Shown: positions 24,540 through 57,519 of the stretch, in pieces
Layout: each line of letters opens with the position of its first letter
How positions within the stretch are numbered: position 1 is the first letter of the stretch
DNA from: a virus
Lineage: Duplodnaviria; Heunggongvirae; Uroviricota; Caudoviricetes
Reading direction: 5' to 3' (one strand)
Length of the DNA stretch: 64,000 nucleotides
Virus record (IMG/VR): IMGVR_UViG_3300033463_000040
Span: 53,319-117,318 of that record
Made by a program: the position numbers and the translations under genes
The notes under the pieces: model-generated
What the model was told of the DNA's origin: nothing
Database searches by the model: none
Seen by the model: only the letters and a program-made list of their open reading frames with translations

Positions 24540-24605
24540 ATATAAATTTTTTGGTGGCCCTGACCGGAATCGAACCGGTACGACATTTAACTGTCAACAG
24601 ATTTT

Positions 24606-25309
24606 CTTACTACTATAGCTTTCACTACCAATTTCTTGTTTGTAGTCTGGACTTTGTCTTCACCATATATTTCTACTTAGGTGGCTGCCGTTAAGTCTCT
24701 ACACGTTCCTATTTCTAGGCTTCGCTCGGCGTTAGGATTATAAAACCTTTCACCGAATTTGACAGCATTCAATCGAGAAGTTTCCTACCTTGTTGCTCAT
24801 TAGTCTTACCTCTTCTAAACCTATAAGATTTAGTTAAGGAATGGCAATTTGGACACAATATAATTAAATTAGATAATAAATGATTTTCAGGATTTCCATC
24901 GATATGATGTAATTCGCATGGAGTATATTTGCTATTTTTTAATTTTTCACACCACCCACATTTCTCACACTTATCTTCTTTATATCCTTCATCTATTAAT
25001 CTTGTTTTTAATTTATATGTTTGATACTGAGGATACTTTCCTGCTAAAATTTCTTCTATAGATATTTTAGCAGATCTTTTTTTCTCAGTACCTTTTCCGC
25101 CTTGATTAGGTTTATAAATACCCAATCTTTTAGCATGCCTAATAAATGTTGTATATGCCATACCACATCTTTTAGCAGCTAAAGCCATTGTTTGAGACTT
25201 AATGATAATATCAATCATTTCTTGATCTGTAATTCTATTTTTCATAGGATTAACTCCTTATGATATAGAACTACTTTTTCAATAAATTATGATACACTCA
25301 TTTTCGTCT
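24606..25309 (-). mobile_element. group I intron in the tRNA-Leu anticodon loop, carrying an HNH homing endonuclease ORF
   Basis: Exon ends in U before the 5' splice site; the intron ends in G; P7-like CAGACTAC...GTAGT elements near the 3' end; HNH ORF inside. Confidence 0.6.
24769..25245 (-). CDS. HNH homing endonuclease (intron-encoded) with N-terminal HTH
   Basis: CELHHIDGNPENHLLSNLIILCPNCHS HNH motif; lies wholly within the intron. Confidence 0.65.
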   Translation of the reverse strand: MKNRITDQEMIDIIIKSQTMALAAKRCGMAYTTFIRHAKRLGIYKPNQGGKGTEKKRSAKISIEEILAGKYPQYQTYKLKTRLIDEGYKEDKCEKCGWCEKLKNSKYTPCELHHIDGNPENHLLSNLIILCPNCHSLTKSYRFRRGKTNEQQGRKLLD

Positions 25310-25360
25310 AAGTCTGCAGCGTCTACCAATTCCGCCACAGGGCCAAAATTAATAAAGTAA

Positions 25361-25450
25361 TGGCGGAGTGGGAGGGATTTGAACCCCCGGAAACATTACT
25401 GCTTCGGCTGATTAGTAATCAGCTGTATTAAACCGCTCTACCACCACTCC
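25361..25450 (-). tRNA. class II tRNA, Ser-like, with an atypical anticodon read as ACU
   Basis: Acceptor GGAGTGG/CCACTCC; long variable arm; anticodon arm GCTGA-TTACTAA-TCAGC gives ACT at 34-36. Confidence 0.55.
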
Positions 25451-25551: not shown

Positions 25552-25625
25552 TGGTGCACCAACCCGGTTATGCTCCGAGGTCTTAACCTTGGCAAGGTTA
25601 CATTCTACTATTAAACTACTGGTGC
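25552..25625 (-). tRNA. tRNA-Gly (GCC) with a non-canonical T-loop (AGCATAA)
   Basis: Acceptor GCACCAG/TTGGTGC; anticodon arm TAACC-TTGCCAA-GGTTA. Confidence 0.55.
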
Positions 25626-26109
25626 TTTTTATTCAAATATTTGAAAATTTCATCTTTAAAATTTTCAAACCAACCTAACTTTCTGTTACAATTACTACAT
25701 AATAATCCACGAAATTTAGAAGTTTTATGATCATGATCACGACATAATTTCGATATATCTTTTTTATTATGTTATGTGAAGCAATTTCAGTTTTACCACA
25801 AATTTCACATACCAAATGAGTTTTTTGGTATTCTTCTAATTCCCCATATGTAATATCTAAAATTTGCCCATTTTTTGCTTTTACAAATCTTTTTAATTTT
25901 TCTTCATGTAAATGATTACCTAATTTTCTATTTAAATTCAAAATTTGTTTTCTGTATTCAGGTTCTTGATATCTGGCTTTCATTTTATTTGAAATTTTCT
26001 TTTTTGTTTCTTGTGAAATATTACGACTATTTACACATTTTCTTGAACAAAATTTTCGATTTGTATCATTTTCAAATTCTATTCCACATTTTGGACAAAT
26101 TGCTTTCAT
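25616..26109 (-). CDS. Zn-ribbon + HNH endonuclease; HNH motif reachable only by a -1 shift at A-AAA-AAG (zero-frame product ends at 25675)
   Basis: Zero frame reads ...CEICGKTEIASHNIIKK then a non-conserved tail. The -1 frame from the A-AAA-AAG heptamer reads DISKLCRDHDHKTSKFRGLLCSNCNRKLGW, a canonical HNH motif. The 3' end overlaps tRNA-Gly. Confidence 0.5.
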
Positions 26110-26639: not shown

Positions 26640-27831
26640 ATATAAAGGTGTTTTGATTCTCTACGATGGCTCAATAACACCAAAAGCCTCGGCAAATCCT
26701 CGACCATTGGTCAAGGCCCAGAAATATGTTCAGTCGAGCATCACTAGCTGAACTCCGTGATGTTCGGATTGAGGTGTCCAATCAGTAGTTGAAACTTTAC
26801 CCCAAAAACCAAAAATGCATTTCTACATTCTGGCAATCCATACTAGCTAATGCTAATAGGAATTTAAGCGGAGAATGATAGTAAGACCCGGAATTTAGAT
26901 CACTGACTTGTAAGAGTACAAGCTAACCGGCCTATCAAACCCGAAATTAATATACATAAAAGTATATCAACAGTAAACATTTATACTTCCAATTCCACCT
27001 TACTAGAGCTCTTTCAGGTTTCCTATTCTTTCCCTTGGACTTGTTACAGCAAGCTGTATTGTCGAACACCAATACATTCGAGACTATTTCACTCGAAATA
27101 AGTATAAACATTAAAAATGCAGAATTTAGTTGGCCTAACCTAACGAAGTCACACCTGCATTAAACTCCGACTACTATCGACTAGTGACGATCGTTCTGAC
27201 CAGGAACGTTAGTCAAGGGATTTAGCCTACTACTGCAGTCTCAGCTAAATTGAGGGTGGGATTATTGGTTAGGCACTTCCCCTAACACTTCAGCCCAGTG
27301 TGCTGTGTGCTATACTTCACACTACTTACCCAAACTTTATGGCGACTCGTATGGGTACCGCCCCCATCTGATTTCCTGAGTGACAGTCAGGTGAACACAC
27401 TATGCATTCCCACGAGCCAAATATTTTTCTATACTTTTTGAGCTAAGCCCGCAAATAAATTTGGTAGATTCTGTTGCCAAGCTCTACCCAGCTCCGATTG
27501 ATAACTTTATTTAAATCAAGCAGCTATTGCACTTAATTTATAGTTATCGTTCGCTGGTTCATTTATCATGCCAGTCAATTAAATAATCTTTTGTAATTAT
27601 TTAGTAAACTGTATCGGTGATATTGCAATGTCCCTTATGCTTCTTTTGGTCTAGTACCAAATGTTCTATTCGTAATAAACTAAATATCACCAAACTTTAT
27701 GGTGGAGATATCGGTATTGAAACCGAGTCCAGTAAAAATATACTGTCGAATTTAACTCATCCCCTTGTATCTTTACCTAGAGCTGATAACATTACTAAGA
27801 TGTCATAGCAGTTGTTCTAGGATTTCATTTG
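26640..27831. ncRNA. 1.2-kb ORF-free, GC-enriched, hairpin-dense segment between tRNA-Asn and tRNA-Tyr: candidate large structured RNA
   Basis: No ORF above the noise. GC visibly above the ~28% background. Many GC-containing local stems (catcac..gtgatg, gttagg..cctaac, agtgtg..cacact, cctga..tcagg). CCAAACTTTATGG motif twice (27331, 27679). A tRNA-like 3' end at 27690-27725. Confidence 0.3.
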
Positions 27832-28098
27832 TGGTGGGAGAGGTTGGAGTCGAACCAACTCAGTCATAAGACAACAGATTTCATTGCTACATTGTTTTCA
27901 CATTGTAGTCTGGACTTTCTCTTCATCTCAATAAGATGTCTGGTGTAAAGTCTCTACACTCGGATTTCTCCTAGCTCGGGATTAGCATATCATTTAACTT
28001 AGCTTTCCCCGACTTAGCCAAATTTTCACTTATATATTACTATATAAGGCTGCAATTTTTTACAGTCTGCCCCGGCTCTCCGACTCCGGCGCTCGCCC
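27832..28098 (-). tRNA. tRNA-Tyr (GUA) interrupted by a ~180-nt intron; exons 28098..28062 and 27881..27832
   Basis: 5' exon GGGCGAG-CG-CCGGAGTCGGAGAGCCGG-G-GCAGA-CTGT joins to 3' exon AAA-TCTGT-TGTCTTATGACTGA-GTTGGTTCGACTCCAAC-CTCTCCC-A-CCA. The spliced anticodon arm GCAGACTGTAAATCTGT matches the E. coli tRNA-Tyr pattern. The intron core is homologous to the tRNA-Leu intron. Confidence 0.55.
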
Positions 28099-36792: not shown

Positions 36793-38994
36793 TTAATCCT
36801 TATTATAATAACTGTTTTTAATATCAATAATGGATAATGTATCTAAATCAATACCACCATTTTTAATACCTGTCATAAAACTAAACAAATCATTCATCAA
36901 ATTTGTTTGTTCAGACTTTACATTTTTAGCGGCAAAATATTTATCATTATCACCTTTATTAATATATTCTTTCATTCTACGCATGTCTTTCCAGAATTTA
37001 TAGAAAGGTGTTTTATATTTAATCATAAAATTATTCTGATCTACAAATACAAAACCTTCTATTTCTTCATGAAAATCTTTATCAAATGCTTCAATAAAAG
37101 ATTTTAATTCAGCAAAGGTATTAAATACTTTACACATTTCTTTTGGTTTACATCCTATTTGTTTAGCTAATTCCCATACATCATCATAAGATTTAAATGT
37201 ATCTGTAAAATCATTCTGTACTATATCTAATAATACAACTTTTTCATTGACATATTCAATAATATGCGGATCATTATGTGGATCTACACATTCAAATATA
37301 GCGGAACAATTATTAGCTTTTAAATATTCTTTTAATTTATCAATATTTGTATGTGTTTTTAATATACGCTCAAAGTTTTCTTTATATTCGCCTTGATTTG
37401 TAGATTTAGATGCAATAAATAATTGATCATTATATACAGATACAATACCTAAAAAGCCATTTTCTTTCAAATAAGCAGTTACTGGAAATACTAATGTCTT
37501 TTCTAAATTTCTCCATTGTGTAGATGGATGCTGTTCTGCTTCAAAAAATTTAGGATAAGATCTAGCAACTACTTGATTTGTCTTAGTATCAACAAATAAG
37601 CCTCTCGCTGTAGTAGTTAATTTATTCCATTTTTGGCTATAAAAAGCTTCTCTACTAAAGTTATAAGAAACTATACCATCACCCAAATCTTTTTTATGTA
37701 TTAAACTACTACTATCCAATTGTTGAATAATTGGATTATCATGTCTACTAGAAGGAATTTGTATATCTTTGTTATAAATTGTATTTGGTATTTCTATTGG
37801 TAATATATTCATTTTGTCTGTATAAGATAATTCAACTATTCTTAAATTACCACCAAATTCAACTTTACCTTCTAAGTTAATACTATAGCCGTCTGCACTT
37901 ATAATTGGATTATTAGTTACATTACGATGACCATGTACATTATAGCATTTGTAGTTTAATACTTGCATAGTCATTTTTTCATTAATACTACCAAAAGCTT
38001 TTTCTACTTCATCTAAATCATCATAATCACCTACTCCTTTAATACATTGTATTGCAGAAGTACGATAATCTAAAGGAAAGCTTAATCCACCATGAGTAAT
38101 AGAAAATCTATGATAAATACCCTGACAGTAAAAACTAACATTTACTGCTACTTTTAATCTTCTAGTAAACTTACTTAATTGATCTTTTAATTCACCAAAC
38201 TGTACTAAAGAATCTTTGAAATCTGGTGTCATTTTAGCAGCTTCACCATCTCTTACATAATTCTTAGCCCATATTTCATGATTACCTTGTAAAAATACAA
38301 AGTTTTCTTTTTCACAGTGGTCTAAACAAAACTGTAATACTTCTTTAGCTTGAATACCACGATCAAAATAATCACCAATAAAGATGTATAATTTTTGATC
38401 AGATTCTGGAGATGCTTCAAAGTATTTTCTTATTGGATCATAACAATTATGTATATCACCAAATATTACTACTTCTTTCCATTTATTACCATCTATTTTA
38501 TATACAAAATTATCTAAATTAGGAAATTCATTATAATCATAAATTTCATATTTATTTTGTAATGGTACTTTTATTTGATTATACATACGATCTAATACTT
38601 CATTTGGTACTTGTTTATAACTTTCCCGCATTAAATTTCTTTCTTTACAAGTATCTAAATCAACAGAAGAAAAATCTACAATAATCATACGATAATTATA
38701 TTCTTTACACAATTTTTTATAATCTTTTAAATAAGATTCTTTGGTATGTGTAGCATCTAATATAGTAAAATCACCATTCTTCATACGATCTTCTAATCTT
38801 TCTTTAAAGAAAGCCCAAACATGTTTATCATGTTTATTAGAAACAATATATTTACCTTTTATAGTTTGTTCTGGAGAAGAGTATAATAAACGAATAGCAT
38901 CGGTACTTAAAACGTATGCTTCTAAATCTCTTTCTTTAATCCAAGTAGATTTACCAGAACCTGGAATACCTCTTAAAACTAACAAGATCTTCAT
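36793..38994 (-). CDS. trifunctional RNA repair enzyme, Pnkp-like (kinase, metallophosphatase, ligase-like)
   Basis: N-terminal P-loop GIPGSGKST; central calcineurin-like motifs GDIHNCYD, GDYFDRG, GNHE; C-terminal third with ligase-like KENG. Confidence 0.55.
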   Translation of the reverse strand: MKILLVLRGIPGSGKSTWIKERDLEAYVLSTDAIRLLYSSPEQTIKGKYIVSNKHDKHVWAFFKERLEDRMKNGDFTILDATHTKESYLKDYKKLCKEYNYRMIIVDFSSVDLDTCKERNLMRESYKQVPNEVLDRMYNQIKVPLQNKYEIYDYNEFPNLDNFVYKIDGNKWKEVVIFGDIHNCYDPIRKYFEASPESDQKLYIFIGDYFDRGIQAKEVLQFCLDHCEKENFVFLQGNHEIWAKNYVRDGEAAKMTPDFKDSLVQFGELKDQLSKFTRRLKVAVNVSFYCQGIYHRFSITHGGLSFPLDYRTSAIQCIKGVGDYDDLDEVEKAFGSINEKMTMQVLNYKCYNVHGHRNVTNNPIISADGYSINLEGKVEFGGNLRIVELSYTDKMNILPIEIPNTIYNKDIQIPSSRHDNPIIQQLDSSSLIHKKDLGDGIVSYNFSREAFYSQKWNKLTTTARGLFVDTKTNQVVARSYPKFFEAEQHPSTQWRNLEKTLVFPVTAYLKENGFLGIVSVYNDQLFIASKSTNQGEYKENFERILKTHTNIDKLKEYLKANNCSAIFECVDPHNDPHIIEYVNEKVVLLDIVQNDFTDTFKSYDDVWELAKQIGCKPKEMCKVFNTFAELKSFIEAFDKDFHEEIEGFVFVDQNNFMIKYKTPFYKFWKDMRRMKEYINKGDNDKYFAAKNVKSEQTNLMNDLFSFMTGIKNGGIDLDTLSIIDIKNSYYNKD

Positions 38995-55977: not shown

Positions 55978-57519
55978 ATGTCAATTTTAAAAACAATCGA
56001 AAAACAAGGTTTGACAGAAGCTAAACGCAATGTCAAAATGAACCGCGGTATCGCACACGCAGCTCAATTCTTAGCAGAATCTAACTTAGGTGTTCGTTGC
56101 CCAAATTTGGTTAAAGGTTTAGAATCTGATTCCAAAGAAGCTAAATATGCAGCAGCTACATTAGTCCAAATCATGGAAAATACAGCTGACTACGTTATGA
56201 AAACAGACGGCAAAGATATCTTACATGAAGATGCTATCAACGCTACAGCTAACACAATGTTAACACCAGGCGTCTCAACTTTGACTCCACAAGTATTGGA
56301 TATCGTTAATATATTTTATCCAATGATGGTTGCAAATTATATTGCAGACATTCAAGCTATGGATCGTCAATCTGGCCAAATCTTTACAATTAAGACACGT
56401 TACAGCCAGACAGCAGCAGACGTAGCAGAAGGTGATATTGTATTCGAAAAAGCAACTGACGGTACATATTCTACTGAAGGTGTTATTTCTTATACAGCAG
56501 CTACAACAGCAGCAGGTGCAGCTACATTGAATCCAACAGCAGCATTAGAAGCAAACACAACAGTAAAAGTACGTGCAGGTTCATTTATCGTTACAGTTGA
56601 TGGTAAAGAAGTTGCTCGTGATTACGGTTTAGACACATCTTTGGATGGTGTTGGTGGTACATATGTAGTTATCGGTAAGGGCGTATCTGGTACAGTTGAT
56701 GCACAAACAGGTGTTGCAACTTTGAAATTGGATACAGCTGTTATTGCTGATGGTACAGTATTGAATGCTACAGCTTCTTATGATACAGAACACGATGAAG
56801 ATTTGATTCGTAAGATTCAATTCGATATTCCTAACCAACCAATCTTGGCTAAGGAACACCCATTGATGAGTTCATATTCTGTTGCTGCAGGTTTAGTCAT
56901 GAACGCTCACTTAGCAATTGATACAGATGAATTGATCACAAATCAATTAGCTGGTACAATTCGTTGGGAACGTGACTTGGCATTAGTTAAAGCAGTATCT
57001 GATGCTGCAGTTGCTAATCCATCTTTGACTTTTGACTGCTCAGCTAACGGTACTAACTTGACATTGGCACAACGTTATAGTTCATATACAACAACTATTT
57101 CTTCTGCTCGTGGTATTATCCAAGAAACAGCAGGTCGTGGAACTGTTGACTTTATCATCTGTTCTGCTACTCAAGGTTTGCCAATTATCGAACAAATCGA
57201 AGGCTTTAAAGCTGCTCCAGAAGCTAAGAAACCAATTGGTCCATATTTAGCAGGTACATTGCGTGATGGTACAATCAACGTAATTGCAGTTCCTTATACA
57301 AAAACATTGGCAGCTGATCAAGTTGTCTTTGGTTTCAAGGGCTTCCAATTAGGTGATTCTGCAATCATCTTAGCTGAATGGGTTGCTTTGTATTTGACAC
57401 CAACATTCCAAGCTCCAAACTTACGTAACCACAAAGGTTGCTTGAGTTTCTACGACTTATTTGTAAATAAGCCAGAATACTTGGTTAAAGGTGCTATTTC
57501 TAACTTCAACGTTGCTTAA
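55978..57519 (+). CDS. putative major capsid protein (513 aa)
   Basis: Plus-strand gene; codon usage strongly skewed to GGT/GCT/ACA/GTT-type codons, unlike its neighbours; Ala/Thr/Gly/Val-rich; followed by a strong terminator. Confidence 0.45.
   Translation: MSILKTIEKQGLTEAKRNVKMNRGIAHAAQFLAESNLGVRCPNLVKGLESDSKEAKYAAATLVQIMENTADYVMKTDGKDILHEDAINATANTMLTPGVSTLTPQVLDIVNIFYPMMVANYIADIQAMDRQSGQIFTIKTRYSQTAADVAEGDIVFEKATDGTYSTEGVISYTAATTAAGAATLNPTAALEANTTVKVRAGSFIVTVDGKEVARDYGLDTSLDGVGGTYVVIGKGVSGTVDAQTGVATLKLDTAVIADGTVLNATASYDTEHDEDLIRKIQFDIPNQPILAKEHPLMSSYSVAAGLVMNAHLAIDTDELITNQLAGTIRWERDLALVKAVSDAAVANPSLTFDCSANGTNLTLAQRYSSYTTTISSARGIIQETAGRGTVDFIICSATQGLPIIEQIEGFKAAPEAKKPIGPYLAGTLRDGTINVIAVPYTKTLAADQVVFGFKGFQLGDSAIILAEWVALYLTPTFQAPNLRNHKGCLSFYDLFVNKPEYLVKGAISNFNVA

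What the first reader, a model, noticed from the sequence alone, without database searches (positions are those of the whole stretch)
24552..25344. tRNA-Leu(UAA) split by a group I intron at the classical U34/A35 site, carrying an HNH homing endonuclease
The tRNA 3' half (anticodon 3' stem, long variable hairpin, T-arm, acceptor CAGGGCC-A-CCA) sits at 24552-24605. The matching 5' half (GGCCCTG...GCGGAATTGGTAGACGC...GCAGACTT) is 700 nt away at 25310-25344. Splicing restores the anticodon loop CUUAAAA (anticodon UAA). The insertion point is the same as the ancient cyanobacterial/plastid tRNA-Leu intron. The exon ends in U and the intron ends in G. A P7-like CAGACTAC/GTAGT pair lies near the 3' end. 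The intron interior encodes the HNH ORF 24769-25245. This is a self-splicing mobile intron in a phage tRNA gene.
Basis: seen in the sequence. Interest (0 to 1): 0.75.

Follow-up and report, generated by a model that had tools for sequence, protein, structure and literature searches.

The report
Mobile intron splitting phage tRNA-Leu gene
A phage leucine-tRNA gene is cut in its anticodon by a 704-base self-splicing group I intron carrying its own DNA-cutting (HNH) gene; this is a known kind of element, but it belongs to a large population of phage tRNA introns for which I found no published description.

Summary
On the minus strand, exon 1 (25344-25310) and exon 2 (24605-24552) join in silico into a clean 89-nt tRNA-Leu(UAA). 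The 704 nt between them start after a U, end in G, and match Rfam's group I intron model above its gathering score (65.1 vs 50 bits). All core helices form in the window. In 26 related phage pre-tRNAs plus the window they are supported by covariation (94.8% of cells paired vs 25-40% in slid controls). The 158-aa ORF keeps every conserved HNH and zinc-finger residue. The ORF lies 5' of the core, between P1 and a remnant P2. Its closest relatives are free-standing HNH genes directly beside intact tRNA-Leu genes in other phages. The same intron type sits in at least 93 split tRNA genes on viral contigs, in Agrobacterium phage Atu_ph07, a 735-kb uncultured phage and Lak megaphage (all unannotated), and in many bacteria. 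A second, ORF-less intron splits a tRNA-Tyr gene 3 kb away. A 2014 review states that no phage intron was known in a tRNA gene. Splicing and homing are inferred, not shown.

The parts
25310..25344 (-). tRNA-Leu(UAA) exon 1, 35 nt: acceptor 5' strand, D-arm, anticodon stem 5' strand, C32 U33 U34
   Evidence: In-silico splicing gives ARAGORN tRNA-Leu(taa). ARAGORN intron mode finds the gene start at 25344.
24606..25309 (-). Group I intron, 704 nt. It starts AGACG after exon U34 and ends GUAAG; the terminal (omega) G is at 24606.
   Evidence: The U|A and G|A junction is the only register that obeys the group I rule and still restores a UAA anticodon.
24552..24605 (-). tRNA-Leu(UAA) exon 2, 54 nt: A35 A36, anticodon stem 3' strand, long variable arm, T-arm, acceptor 3' strand, A73, CCA
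25296..25313 (-). P1 hairpin, favoured version: ACUU|A (25313-25309) pairs with the guide UGAGU (25300-25296). It has 5 bp including the U.G pair at the splice site.
   Evidence: 5/5 paired. The guide matches the family consensus AAUUUGAGUGC.
25254..25259 (-). Shine-Dalgarno-like AAGGAG, 8 nt upstream of the ORF's ATG at 25245
24769..25245 (-). HNH homing-endonuclease ORF, 158 aa, with an N-terminal helix-turn-helix-like region and a C-terminal CxxC...HH...N...N...CxxCH motif. The stop codon TGA is at 24771-24769, in J2/3.
   Evidence: ORF. (phrog_10822, E 3.6e-20). (Pfam HNH 18.9 bits, below its cut-off of 21.4). (all family-conserved residues present).
24792..24802 (-). Second, weaker guide-like element UAAUGAGCAAC inside the ORF tail. 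It could form an alternative 4-bp P1.
   Evidence: It aligns with the true guide of relatives whose ORF sits in the P1 loop. The same stretch is homologous coding sequence in the free-standing gene of L005.
24774..24791 (-). Remnant P2 hairpin AAGGUAG-GAAA-CUUCUCG, 4 of 7 pairs, with a GAAA tetraloop at 24784-24781
   Evidence: In the family, P2 covaries at 7/7 pairs. The free-standing homolog has GGAAAAGAAUUUU here.
24684..24766 (-). P3 (GCUGUC 24766-24761 with GGCAGC 24689-24684), enclosing P4 (24755-24751 with 24731-24727), P5 (24748-24746 with 24736-24734), P6 (24725-24723 with 24705-24703), P6a (24719-24716 with 24711-24708) and the P7 5' strand
   Evidence: all pairs form in the window. 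P3 has compensatory changes at 6/6 pairs, P6a at 4/4, and P4/P5 at 3 pairs; the minimum-free-energy fold recovers the same helices.
24694..24699 (-). P7 5' strand G(A)GACU with a bulged A; predicted guanosine-binding helix
   Evidence: Invariant in 27/27 sequences; this is uninformative because the 3' strand was part of the search motif.
24649..24653 (-). P7 3' strand AGUCC, preceded by J8/7 AAGACAA
24661..24683 (-). P8 hairpin CACCUAAGUAGAAAUAUAUGGUG, containing an exact 11-nt GAAA-tetraloop receptor motif (CCUAAG...UAUGG)
   Evidence: That this string is the receptor motif rests on established knowledge, not on a test here.
24609..24646 (-). P9 domain: outer helix ACUAC (24646-24642) with GUAGU (24613-24609). 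It encloses the hairpins CAA-GAAA-UUG (24642-24629) and UAGU-GAAA-GCUA (24627-24616).
   Evidence: P9 covaries (C-G 21, U-A 6) and P9b has compensatory changes at 4/4 pairs.. Rfam's own alignment pairs CUAC with the first GUAG; the covariation contradicts that pairing.

Best explanation
This is a phage-encoded tRNA-Leu(UAA) gene interrupted between U34 and A35 by a self-splicing group I intron. The intron is of the compact type found in bacterial tRNA genes and has acquired an HNH homing-endonuclease gene.

Proposed mechanism, with the status of each step:
1. The tRNA cluster is transcribed on the minus strand (inferred from gene orientation).
2. The intron folds into P1-P9 (shown by model score and covariation).
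3. An external guanosine attacks after U34, which sits in a U.G pair with the guide GAGU(G) at 25299-25295 (inferred from the group I rule).
4. The freed exon 1 attacks after the terminal G at 24606. This yields a tRNA that reads UUA/UUG, 84% of this phage's leucine codons (product shown in silico; chemistry inferred).
5. The ORF is translated from its own AAGGAG site. Its product nicks or cuts intron-less tRNA-Leu(UAA) genes of co-infecting relatives near the anticodon. Repair from the intron-bearing copy then spreads intron plus ORF (inferred from the family's behaviour elsewhere).

The ORF most likely came from a lineage of free-standing HNH genes that live beside tRNA-Leu genes in phage tRNA clusters.
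For: Rfam RF00028 scores 65.1 bits against a gathering score of 50, E = 4.9e-16. The spliced product is a canonical tRNA-Leu(taa). In the window, P3 6/6, P4 5/5, P5 3/3, P6 3/3, P6a 4/4, P9 5/5 and P9b 4/4 all pair, P7 has the bulged A, and the terminal G is present. RNAfold alone recovers the same helices.

Family alignment A2 (26 unique ORF-less phage pre-tRNA-Leu sequences plus the window): 94.8% of cells paired against 25-40% in slid controls; 32 of 55 pairs show changes on both sides; no shuffle of 500 reaches the observed values.

Homologous ORF-less introns lie at the same site in Atu_ph07 and LR756501, and 58 viral tRNA-Leu(UAA) genes pass the junction test.

HNH: phrog_10822 at E 3.6e-20, and all conserved Cys, His and Asn residues are present. 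The ORF-less L109 and ORF-bearing L098 introns are 94% identical over 235 nt and differ by the ORF, so the ORF is gained or lost within one lineage.

Free-standing homologs (36-57% identity) directly abut intact tRNA-Leu genes in 8 of 8 loci examined. UUA plus UUG make up 84% of Leu codons in 18 large ORFs. No other tRNA-Leu gene lies in the window.
Against: No experiment was done: splicing, endonuclease activity and target site are all inferred.

The core's folding energy is not better than shuffled sequence (z = -0.39). P2 is weak (4/7 pairs), P1 is short (5 bp) and P10 is essentially absent, with one possible pair. There are two candidate guide sequences.

Pfam HNH scores 18.9 bits, below its cut-off of 21.4, and no solved-structure homolog is detectable by sequence.

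No intron-less allele, and no close relative of this tRNA, was found in viral or metagenome collections. Mobility of this particular copy is therefore unsupported by polymorphism. The ORF runs through P2 up to 3 nt from P3, so translation could interfere with folding.
Confidence: 0.82

Rival explanations
1. Same element, different wiring. The functional guide would be the downstream GAGC (24798-24795) next to P2, so the ORF sits inside the P1 loop as in relatives L020, L088, L098, L104 and L118. The upstream GAGUG would be a relic.
For: In those relatives the ORF starts 35-45 nt after the splice site, a perfect AUGAGUGC plus P2 follows the ORF, and the upstream copy is decayed to UUUUGUGUUC or similar. 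MAFFT aligns the window's ORF tail to the family's guide, P2 and J2/3. RNAduplex gives -5.0 kcal/mol for the downstream region against -3.8 for the upstream one, though via a different, extended pairing.
Against: The canonical-register downstream P1 has only 4 bp, against 5 for the upstream guide. The upstream element matches the family consensus better, GAGUG against GAGCA. The downstream stretch is explained by protein homology to the tail of the free-standing L005 gene.
Confidence: 0.25
2. The intron is a decaying relic that no longer splices, so the tRNA-Leu gene is a pseudogene and only the HNH gene is maintained.
For: P2 is degenerate (4/7), P10 is nearly absent and the fold is no more stable than shuffled sequence. 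Standard annotation tools do not see a gene here.
Against: Every catalytic-core pair, the U.G pair, the bulged A in P7, the terminal G, the P8 receptor motif and both exons are intact. The Rfam score is above gathering. This is the only tRNA-Leu in the window, and it serves 84% of Leu codons. A second intact intron of the same type sits in tRNA-Tyr nearby.
Confidence: 0.07
3. The intron splices, but the HNH protein is not a classical homing enzyme for this intron. It would act like its free-standing relatives, for example by cutting the tRNA clusters of competing phages (interference or marker exclusion), or it is inactive.
For: The window's protein is closer to free-standing genes (57% to L005, 49% to PEi26) than to most intron-borne ones (33-47%). 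No intron-minus allele was found. Pfam HNH is below its cut-off.
Against: The ORF is intact with its own ribosome-binding site, and all conserved catalytic and zinc residues are present. The exact protein occurs on 3 contigs. ORF presence/absence within one intron lineage (L109/L098) is the signature of an element that moves. Interference and homing are not mutually exclusive.
Confidence: 0.15
4. Chance juxtaposition: two tRNA-like fragments happen to flank a free-standing HNH gene, and no ribozyme is present.
For: Free-standing HNH genes of this family do lie beside tRNA-Leu genes.
Against: Rfam E = 4.9e-16. The halves join into a perfect cloverleaf. The core is 78-84% identical to dozens of ORF-less introns at the same site, and the fold covaries.
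Confidence: 0.01

Closest known systems
[quoted passage not shown]
   Same: Same host gene, same insertion point (U34|A35) and same exon junction ...ACUU|...G|AAAAUC. The guide GAGU(G/C), the compact core without P5abc or P7.1/7.2, and the GAAA loops with a P8 receptor motif also match. Among 105 split tRNAs in bacterial genomes carrying the same P7'-P9 string, 32 are tRNA-Leu(UAA) with this junction. Core identity to the window is 72-78%. PMC13011429 lists 34/35 in tRNA-Leu as a standard site.
   Different: The classical intron has no ORF. Here a 158-aa HNH gene is inserted between P1 and P2, and the host is a phage tRNA cluster rather than a cellular chromosome. The window's core is closer to viral copies (up to 84%) than to any bacterial one sampled. 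No cyanobacterial or plastid reference could be fetched, so direct homology to that lineage rests on my recollection of its sequence.
HNH-bearing tRNA-Leu(UAA) intron reported in a Bacteroidota genome (PMC13011429, 2026)
   Same: Same gene, site and endonuclease family. A Bacteroidales MAG in my sample (L233) has a 725-nt intron with a same-strand HNH ORF 30% identical to the window's, in the same 5' position.
   Different: That report covers complete bacterial genomes only and does not mention phages. The window's HNH belongs to a different subgroup, without the GGNY insertion.
Free-standing HNH endonucleases of phage tRNA clusters (T5/BF23 F-TflI, F-TflII, F-TflIV; Akulenko 2004, cited in PMC3326045)
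   Same: Homologous protein: BF23 hegA (F-TflIV) is 34% identical over 89% of the query. Both reside in phage tRNA gene clusters. The closest homologs (PEi20/26, avDM, LR756502, L005-L008) abut intact tRNA-Leu genes.
   Different: Those genes lie between tRNA genes and no intron is present. Here the gene is inside an intron inside the tRNA gene.
Collaborative homing: F-CphI and the psbA intron of cyanophage S-PM2 (Zeng, Bonocora and Shub 2009, as summarised in PMC6083498)
   Same: A free-standing endonuclease lies next to a gene whose intron sits at the enzyme's target. This was proposed as the route by which introns acquire endonuclease genes. The HNH family here is seen in both states around the same gene.
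   Different: Here the two states are in different genomes, the target is a tRNA gene, and no cleavage data exist.
Phage group I introns with HNH genes in protein-coding genes (e.g. I-PfoP3I in Pf-WMP3 DNA polymerase, PMC3428280; I-TevIII and mobE, PMC2790892)
   Same: A self-splicing intron plus an HNH endonuclease in a lytic phage; expected homing during co-infection.
   Different: The host gene is a tRNA. The 2014 review states that all phage introns then known were in protein-coding genes despite the many phage tRNA genes (PMC3984707). The intron is the compact tRNA type rather than the IA2 type.
[quoted passage not shown]
   Same: A tRNA-gene group I intron that carries an endonuclease gene targeting the anticodon region.
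   Different: Different tRNA and site (33/34). The endonuclease family is different too: PMC13011429 reports PD-(D/E)XK in tRNA-fMet introns. The host is cellular.

Membership tests
Group I intron (Rfam RF00028) | Covariance-model score at or above the curated gathering score | tested here: met
   65.1 bits against 50, E 4.9e-16, full model 1-253, at 24625-24837(-). Missed when all 64 kb were searched at once.
Group I intron (Rfam RF00028) | 5' splice site after a U that forms a U.G pair with an internal guide (P1); intron ends in G | tested here: met
   Exon ends ...ACUU. The guide UGAGU at 25300-25296 gives 5/5 pairs with U.G at the junction. The terminal G is at 24606. A second candidate guide exists at 24799-24796.
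Group I intron (Rfam RF00028) | Conserved core P3-P8 and P4-P6 with the P7 guanosine-binding helix, supported by covariation | tested here: met
   All pairs form in the window. In the family, 94.8% of cells pair, 32 pairs have changes on both sides, and slid controls give 25-40%. P7 itself is invariant and so uninformative.
Group I intron (Rfam RF00028) | Guanosine-dependent self-splicing | not testable with these tools
   Needs an in vitro transcript or RNA from infected cells.
tRNA-Leu(UAA) 34/35 intron (cyanobacterial/plastid type, IC3) | Host gene is tRNA-Leu(UAA); insertion between U34 and A35 | tested here: met
   The spliced product is tRNA-Leu(taa) with the loop CUU|AAAA.
tRNA-Leu(UAA) 34/35 intron (cyanobacterial/plastid type, IC3) | Exons can pair to form the anticodon stem, required for Anabaena intron splicing (Zaug 1993, cited in PMC3984707) | tested here: met
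   GCAGA with UCUGU, 5/5 pairs including one G.U.
tRNA-Leu(UAA) 34/35 intron (cyanobacterial/plastid type, IC3) | IC3 architecture: no P5abc, no P7.1/7.2, short P2, tetraloop-receptor contacts | tested here: inconclusive
   The anatomy is consistent, but no subgroup-specific models were available, so the subgroup was not assigned computationally.
tRNA-Leu(UAA) 34/35 intron (cyanobacterial/plastid type, IC3) | Sequence homology to bona fide bacterial tRNA-Leu(UAA) introns | tested here: met
   32 bacterial tRNA-Leu(UAA) introns share the junction and guide, and core identity is 72-78%. None of those 32 is from a cyanobacterium.
tRNA-Leu(UAA) 34/35 intron (cyanobacterial/plastid type, IC3) | No ORF (typical of the classical intron) | tested here: not met
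   A 158-aa ORF is present. The window is therefore an ORF-bearing variant of the family.
HNH homing endonuclease | HNH catalytic motif with flanking CxxC zinc ligands | tested here: met
   CEKC...ELHHIDGN...NL..LCPNCH is present, and every column conserved in 20 relatives is kept. PHROG HNH families match at up to 3.6e-20. Pfam PF01844 scores 18.9 bits, below its cut-off of 21.4.
HNH homing endonuclease | Encoded within the mobile element with its own translation signals | tested here: met
   The ORF lies wholly inside the intron, with AAGGAG 8 nt upstream of the ATG.
HNH homing endonuclease | Presence/absence polymorphism of the element among related genomes | tested here: inconclusive
   No intron-less allele or close relative of this tRNA was found. 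At family level, ORF-plus and ORF-minus introns that are 94% identical do exist, and both intron-plus and intron-minus tRNA-Leu(UAA) genes occur in phages.
HNH homing endonuclease | Site-specific cleavage of the intron-less allele | not testable with these tools
   Requires purified protein and a substrate.

The most novel reading that the evidence does not exclude
Phage tRNA clusters may be a large, overlooked reservoir and vehicle for the classical tRNA group I introns. One HNH lineage alternates between living beside tRNA-Leu(UAA) genes and living inside the intron that splits them, which captures the free-standing-to-intron-borne transition in nature. Phages carrying such armed introns could be the agents that spread tRNA-Leu, Arg, Met and Tyr introns sporadically across bacterial phyla. 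This bears on the old debate over whether the tRNA-Leu intron is an immobile ancient relic or a horizontally moving element.
Probability: 0.35. Interest if true: 0.7.

Novelty: new member of a known kind. Interest (0 to 1): 0.5.

Why it matters
Three points.

1. **Annotation.** Standard tRNA and Rfam pipelines missed two tRNA genes in this window, Leu and Tyr. They have also left the same split gene unannotated in deposited phage genomes. In Atu_ph07 a spurious CDS overlaps it. Phage tRNA repertoires are therefore under-counted, here for the tRNA that reads 84% of leucine codons.

2. **Biology.** A 2014 review states that all known phage introns are in protein-coding genes. A capped sample here already gives 93 split tRNA genes on viral contigs, several carrying HNH genes at three different places in the intron.

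3. **Evolution.** The same HNH lineage occurs both free-standing beside intact tRNA-Leu genes and inside the intron. This gives a tractable natural system for testing how introns acquire endonuclease genes, and whether phages carry tRNA introns between bacteria.

Tried and rejected
- **Default detectors.** Default ARAGORN and whole-window Rfam at gathering threshold found nothing here. An Rfam 'evalue' run on 14.8 kb of loci that do contain homologous introns also returned nothing. Negative Rfam results on long inputs are therefore weak.
- **Near-identity search.** Megablast against phages gave no match.
- **Exact 19-mer from P7-P3'.** No hit in viral contigs.
Rejected. The pair is P9: the covariation puts GUAGU at 24613-24609 opposite ACUAC.
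- **Rfam's own P9 hairpin.** CUAC with the first GUAG is rejected, because Atu_ph07 and LR756501 break it while the outer pairing is compensated.
- **My first reading of the ORF position.** I first placed the ORF in the P1 loop with the downstream guide functional. I downgraded this after finding that the stretch is homologous to the tail of a free-standing gene.
- **Intron-less allele.** Searches for an intron-less allele or a close relative of this tRNA gave four scans with no hits.
- **Solved structures.** No solved-structure homolog of the HNH protein by sequence.
- **Thermodynamic stability.** As evidence this fails: z = -0.39.
- **Lak-C1.** The 3' exon and intron end match, but I could not locate a convincing 5' exon; ARAGORN's call looks wrong.
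- **Literature.** Seven completed searches found no report of group I introns in phage tRNA genes. The library lacks most subscription journals, so absence is not proof.
Full report
**1. The observation**

Read on the minus strand, the window has GGCCCUGUGGCGGAAUUGGUAGACGCUGCAGACUU at 25344-25310. It has AAAAUCUGUUGACAGUUAAAUGUCGUACCGGUUCGAUUCCGGUCAGGGCCACCA at 24605-24552, 704 nt further on. Joined, these make an 89-nt sequence that ARAGORN calls tRNA-Leu(taa). It has a perfect 7-bp acceptor stem, a 5-bp anticodon stem, the loop CUUAAAA, a long variable arm, A73 and an encoded CCA.

ARAGORN's intron mode finds the same gene ends unaided. It assumes the archaeal/eukaryal 37/38 site, so it mislabels the gene as Ser. 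Default ARAGORN sees nothing here. The gene lies in a run of tRNA genes on the same strand. ARAGORN and Rfam adds one more. With the two split genes described here, the cluster has 17.

**2. The intervening sequence is a group I intron**

The whole-window Rfam search at gathering threshold reported only tRNAs. On a 1-kb stretch, the Intron_gpI model matches 24625-24837(-) over its full length at 65.1 bits (gathering 50, E 4.9e-16). The earlier miss was caused by the speed filters.

The intron begins after a U and ends in G. Shifting the junction by one base either breaks this rule or changes the anticodon.

**3. Relatives, and a test of the fold**

A sensitive BLAST with the core plus 3' exon found homologous, ORF-less introns at the same site of tRNA-Leu(UAA) genes. 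These are in Agrobacterium jumbo phage Atu_ph07 (278 nt) and the 735-kb uncultured phage LR756501 (205 nt). There is a related intron in a Microcoleus phage tRNA-Arg(CCU) gene. The Atu_ph07 gene is unannotated, and a small "hypothetical protein" CDS is drawn over it.

I then scanned IMG/VR with the invariant J8/7-P7'-P9 string AGTCCAGACYACAAAC. Of 122 motif occurrences, 93 lie inside split tRNA genes detectable by ARAGORN. Of the viral split genes plus Atu_ph07 and LR756501, 58 pass a stricter test for tRNA-Leu(UAA) cut as ...ACUU|...G|AAAAUC with a pairing anticodon stem. ARAGORN calls the others tRNA-Arg(UCU), Met, Asn and more; I did not verify those individually.

I aligned 26 unique ORF-less pre-tRNA-Leu sequences with an ORF-deleted version of the window's gene (A2). 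I wrote the group I structure onto the alignment and counted pairs:

| Measure | Proposed structure | Control |
|---|---|---|
| Cells forming standard pairs | 94.8% | 25-40% when 3' partners are slid 1-3 columns |
| Pairs with changes on both sides | 32 of 55 | shuffle mean 24.2; 0/500 shuffles reach 32 |
| Covariation score | 0.451 | 0.166 in shuffles |

- P3 has compensatory changes at all 6 pairs, P2 at all 7, and P6a and P9b at all 4 each.
- P7, and the P9 5' strand at four of its five positions, were fixed by my search motif, so their invariance carries no weight.

In the window itself, P3, P4, P5, P6, P6a, P9, P9a and P9b pair fully. RNAfold on the window's core alone recovers the same helices. 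The predicted energy is no better than shuffled sequence (z = -0.39). The case therefore rests on the model score and covariation, not on stability.

**4. Anatomy and corrections**

- **P7** is G(A)GACU (24699-24694) with AGUCC (24653-24649), with the usual bulged A.
It is the outer helix of a three-way P9 domain. That domain encloses CAA-GAAA-UUG and UAGU-GAAA-GCUA.
- **Rfam's own alignment** pairs CUAC with the nearer GUAG. Atu_ph07 and LR756501 break that pairing.
- **P8** (24683-24661) contains the string CCUAAG...UAUGG. From established knowledge this is the 11-nt GAAA-tetraloop receptor.
- **Subgroup.** There is no P5abc and no P7.1/7.2, so the layout is that of the compact IC3-type tRNA introns. 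I could not run subgroup-specific models.

**5. The ORF**

The ORF 25245-24769 (158 aa) has AAGGAG 8 nt upstream of its ATG. It matches PHROG HNH families (phrog_10822, E 3.6e-20). Pfam's HNH model scores just below its cut-off (18.9 vs 21.4 bits).

In an alignment with 19 relatives, the window's protein keeps every conserved position: C-E-x-C, W, E-L-x-H-I-x-G, N-L, L-C-P-N-C-H, T, Y-R. The exact protein is found on three metagenome contigs; the one shown is a 136-kb ENA assembly.

**6. Where the ORF sits**

In HNH-bearing relatives L020, L088, L098, L104 and L118:

- the ORF begins 35-45 nt after the splice site;
- a perfect guide plus P2 (AUGAGUGC...GAAA...AGUAGAA) overlaps its 3' end;
- the ORF therefore occupies the P1 loop.

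In L037, L040 and L082 the ORF is in P6.

The window looks superficially like the first group. Its ORF tail reads UAAUGAGCAAC-AAGGUAG-GAAA-CUUCUCG-AUUGA, and the stop codon falls in J2/3. Two facts argue against that reading:

- The window also has a better guide, AUGAGUG, 9-15 nt into the intron. This gives a 5-bp P1 hairpin, against 4 bp for the downstream one.
- Its ORF tail (RFRRGKTNEQQGRKLLD) is homologous to the tail of the free-standing L005 gene (RFRRGKTNNKNGKEFLEN).

I therefore favour the upstream guide, with the ORF lying between P1 and a remnant P2. The window has G-GAAA-C where the free-standing gene has AAAAGAAU. This suggests the coding tail has been shaped to keep an L2 tetraloop, which is an inference. 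The alternative wiring remains possible, at about 25%.

**7. Origin of the ORF**

The closest relatives of the window's protein are free-standing genes:

| Locus | Identity to the window's protein |
|---|---|
| L005-L007 | 57% |
| LR756502 (L004) | 50% |
| PEi20/PEi26 and L008 | 49% |
| avDM4 | 48% |

In all eight loci examined, the gene directly abuts an intact tRNA-Leu gene. That tRNA is UAA in seven loci and UAG in crAss-like cr126_1 (38% identity). No group I core was detected in any of them, though Rfam negatives on long inputs are weak.

- BF23 hegA (F-TflIV), one of the HNH enzymes of the T5 tRNA region, is a more distant homolog (Akulenko 2004 via PMC3326045).
- Most intron-borne copies are more distant still, at 33-47%, and carry an N-terminal insertion that the window lacks.
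- ORF-less L109 and ORF-bearing L098 are 94% identical over 235 nt and differ by the roughly 490-nt ORF.

Taken together, this HNH lineage has entered the intron several times, at three different places. The window's copy looks like a separate acquisition from the free-standing pool. This fits the collaborative-homing route proposed for F-CphI and the psbA intron (PMC6083498).

**8. Cellular counterparts**

Of 120 hits, 105 lie in split tRNAs, and 32 of those are tRNA-Leu(UAA) with the same junction and guide. The organisms carrying motif hits include rhizobia, Bartonella, Bacteroidota, cyanobacteria (though none of the 32 tRNA-Leu(UAA) hits listed is cyanobacterial) and many MAGs.

HNH homologs occur in long tRNA-Leu introns of a Bacteroidales MAG (same strand) and two Gammaproteobacteria MAGs (opposite strand). 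This agrees with the 2026 survey, which notes an HNH gene in a Bacteroidota tRNA-Leu(UAA) intron (PMC13011429).

The window's core is nearest to viral copies (83.8% to L087). The best bacterial copy is 78.2% identical.

**9. Context and function**

The window is phage-like. It has a major head protein at 55978-57516 and a Pnkp-RNA ligase fusion at 36796-38994. It is only distantly related to isolates: the capsid protein is 34% identical to that of Xanthomonas phage phiXF1.

The genome is 29.5% G+C, and UUA plus UUG make up 84% of leucine codons in 18 large ORFs. No other tRNA-Leu gene lies in the window. The interrupted gene is therefore one the phage has reason to keep working, which argues for efficient splicing.

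**10. Novelty**

[quoted passage not shown] The less expected part is the host.

[quoted passage not shown] Seven completed literature searches found no later report to the contrary. The library omits most subscription journals, so I treat "undescribed" as probable, not certain.

**11. What is shown and what is inferred**

- **Shown:** the sequence features; the model match; the family-wide covariation; the in-silico product; conservation of the HNH residues; the genomic associations.
- **Inferred:** splicing in vivo; which guide is used; endonuclease activity and target; homing.

Noticed in passing
window 27832-28098 (-): A second split tRNA gene that every detector missed: tRNA-Tyr(GUA). Exon 1 is 28098-28062, a 180-nt ORF-less group I intron is 28061-27882 (Rfam RF00028, 64.8 bits), and exon 2 is 27881-27832. 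The intron lies between positions 35 and 36, a site the 2026 survey calls rare outside Patescibacteria. In-silico splicing gives ARAGORN tRNA-Tyr(gta), with one C.U mismatch in the acceptor stem.
   Followed up: partly
window 27700-27764 (-): A 65-nt tRNA-like element (GGGGAUGAG...UAUCUCCACCA) just downstream of tRNA-Tyr matches the ends of Rfam's tmRNA model at 34.5 bits, below the gathering score of 47. It may be a phage mini-tmRNA-like or tRNA-like domain.
   Followed up: no
window 25361-25450 (-); also L008:3937-4020: A tRNA-Ser with anticodon ACU (A at position 34), which is unusual for bacteria and phages. A second example lies in an unrelated viral contig.
   Followed up: no
window 25555-25625 (-): A tRNA found by Rfam (49.2 bits) but not by ARAGORN. 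The anticodon loop UUGCCAA gives Gly(GCC), and the T-loop (AGCAUAA) lacks the usual UUC.
   Followed up: partly
window 25675-26109 (-): A 144-aa ORF between tRNA genes with weak PHROG matches to HNH/homing-endonuclease families (phrog_1271, 1.4e-6). It may be a second, free-standing or decaying endonuclease gene in the tRNA cluster.
   Followed up: no
window 36796-38994 (-): A 733-aa fusion of polynucleotide kinase-phosphatase and RNA ligase (phrog_8238, E 5.9e-175). This is a tRNA-repair type enzyme, in the same genome as the large tRNA cluster.
   Followed up: no
L014:1554-1915 (Agrobacterium phage Atu_ph07, MF403008 positions 112890-113251): An unannotated tRNA-Leu(UAA) gene split by a 278-nt group I intron in a cultured jumbo phage. 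The record instead shows a small 'hypothetical protein' CDS (AUZ94936) over its 3' part. It would be a good experimental system.
   Followed up: partly
L016 (Prevotella phage Lak-C1, MK250029 around 332000-332720) and Lak-B1 to B9: Lak megaphages carry the 3' end of the same intron type followed by a tRNA-Leu-like 3' exon (AAAAUCCCUUGG...). I could not find a convincing 5' exon, and ARAGORN's call (anticodon gag, 640-nt intron) looks wrong.
   Followed up: partly
viral contigs L033, L035, L053, L064, L072, L087, L106, L108 (alignment A2): Many intron-bearing 'tRNA-Leu(UAA)' genes on viral contigs are short class I tRNAs without the long variable arm that bacterial tRNA-Leu normally has. Their amino-acid identity is uncertain.
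   Followed up: no
viral contigs L045, L050, L112, L115 (tRNA-Leu(UAA) introns of 600-695 nt): These introns are long but have no same-strand ORF of 80 aa or more in the standard code. They may encode an opposite-strand ORF, as in bacterial L222/L223, or be read in a recoded genetic code, or hold decayed ORFs.
   Followed up: no
method: Rfam searches: Infernal's default filters hid both introns of this AT-rich window in the 64-kb search, and hid homologous introns in a 14.8-kb multi-locus search. They score about 65 bits when 1 kb is searched. Group I introns in AT-rich phage genomes are probably under-reported for this reason.
   Followed up: yes
L017:1613-1898 (Microcoleus phage My-WqHQDG, OR578706): This is the only deposited phage record I saw that annotates an intron-containing tRNA: a 286-nt 'tRNA-Arg'. 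It is tRNA-Arg(CCU) with a 213-nt intron of the same core type.
   Followed up: partly
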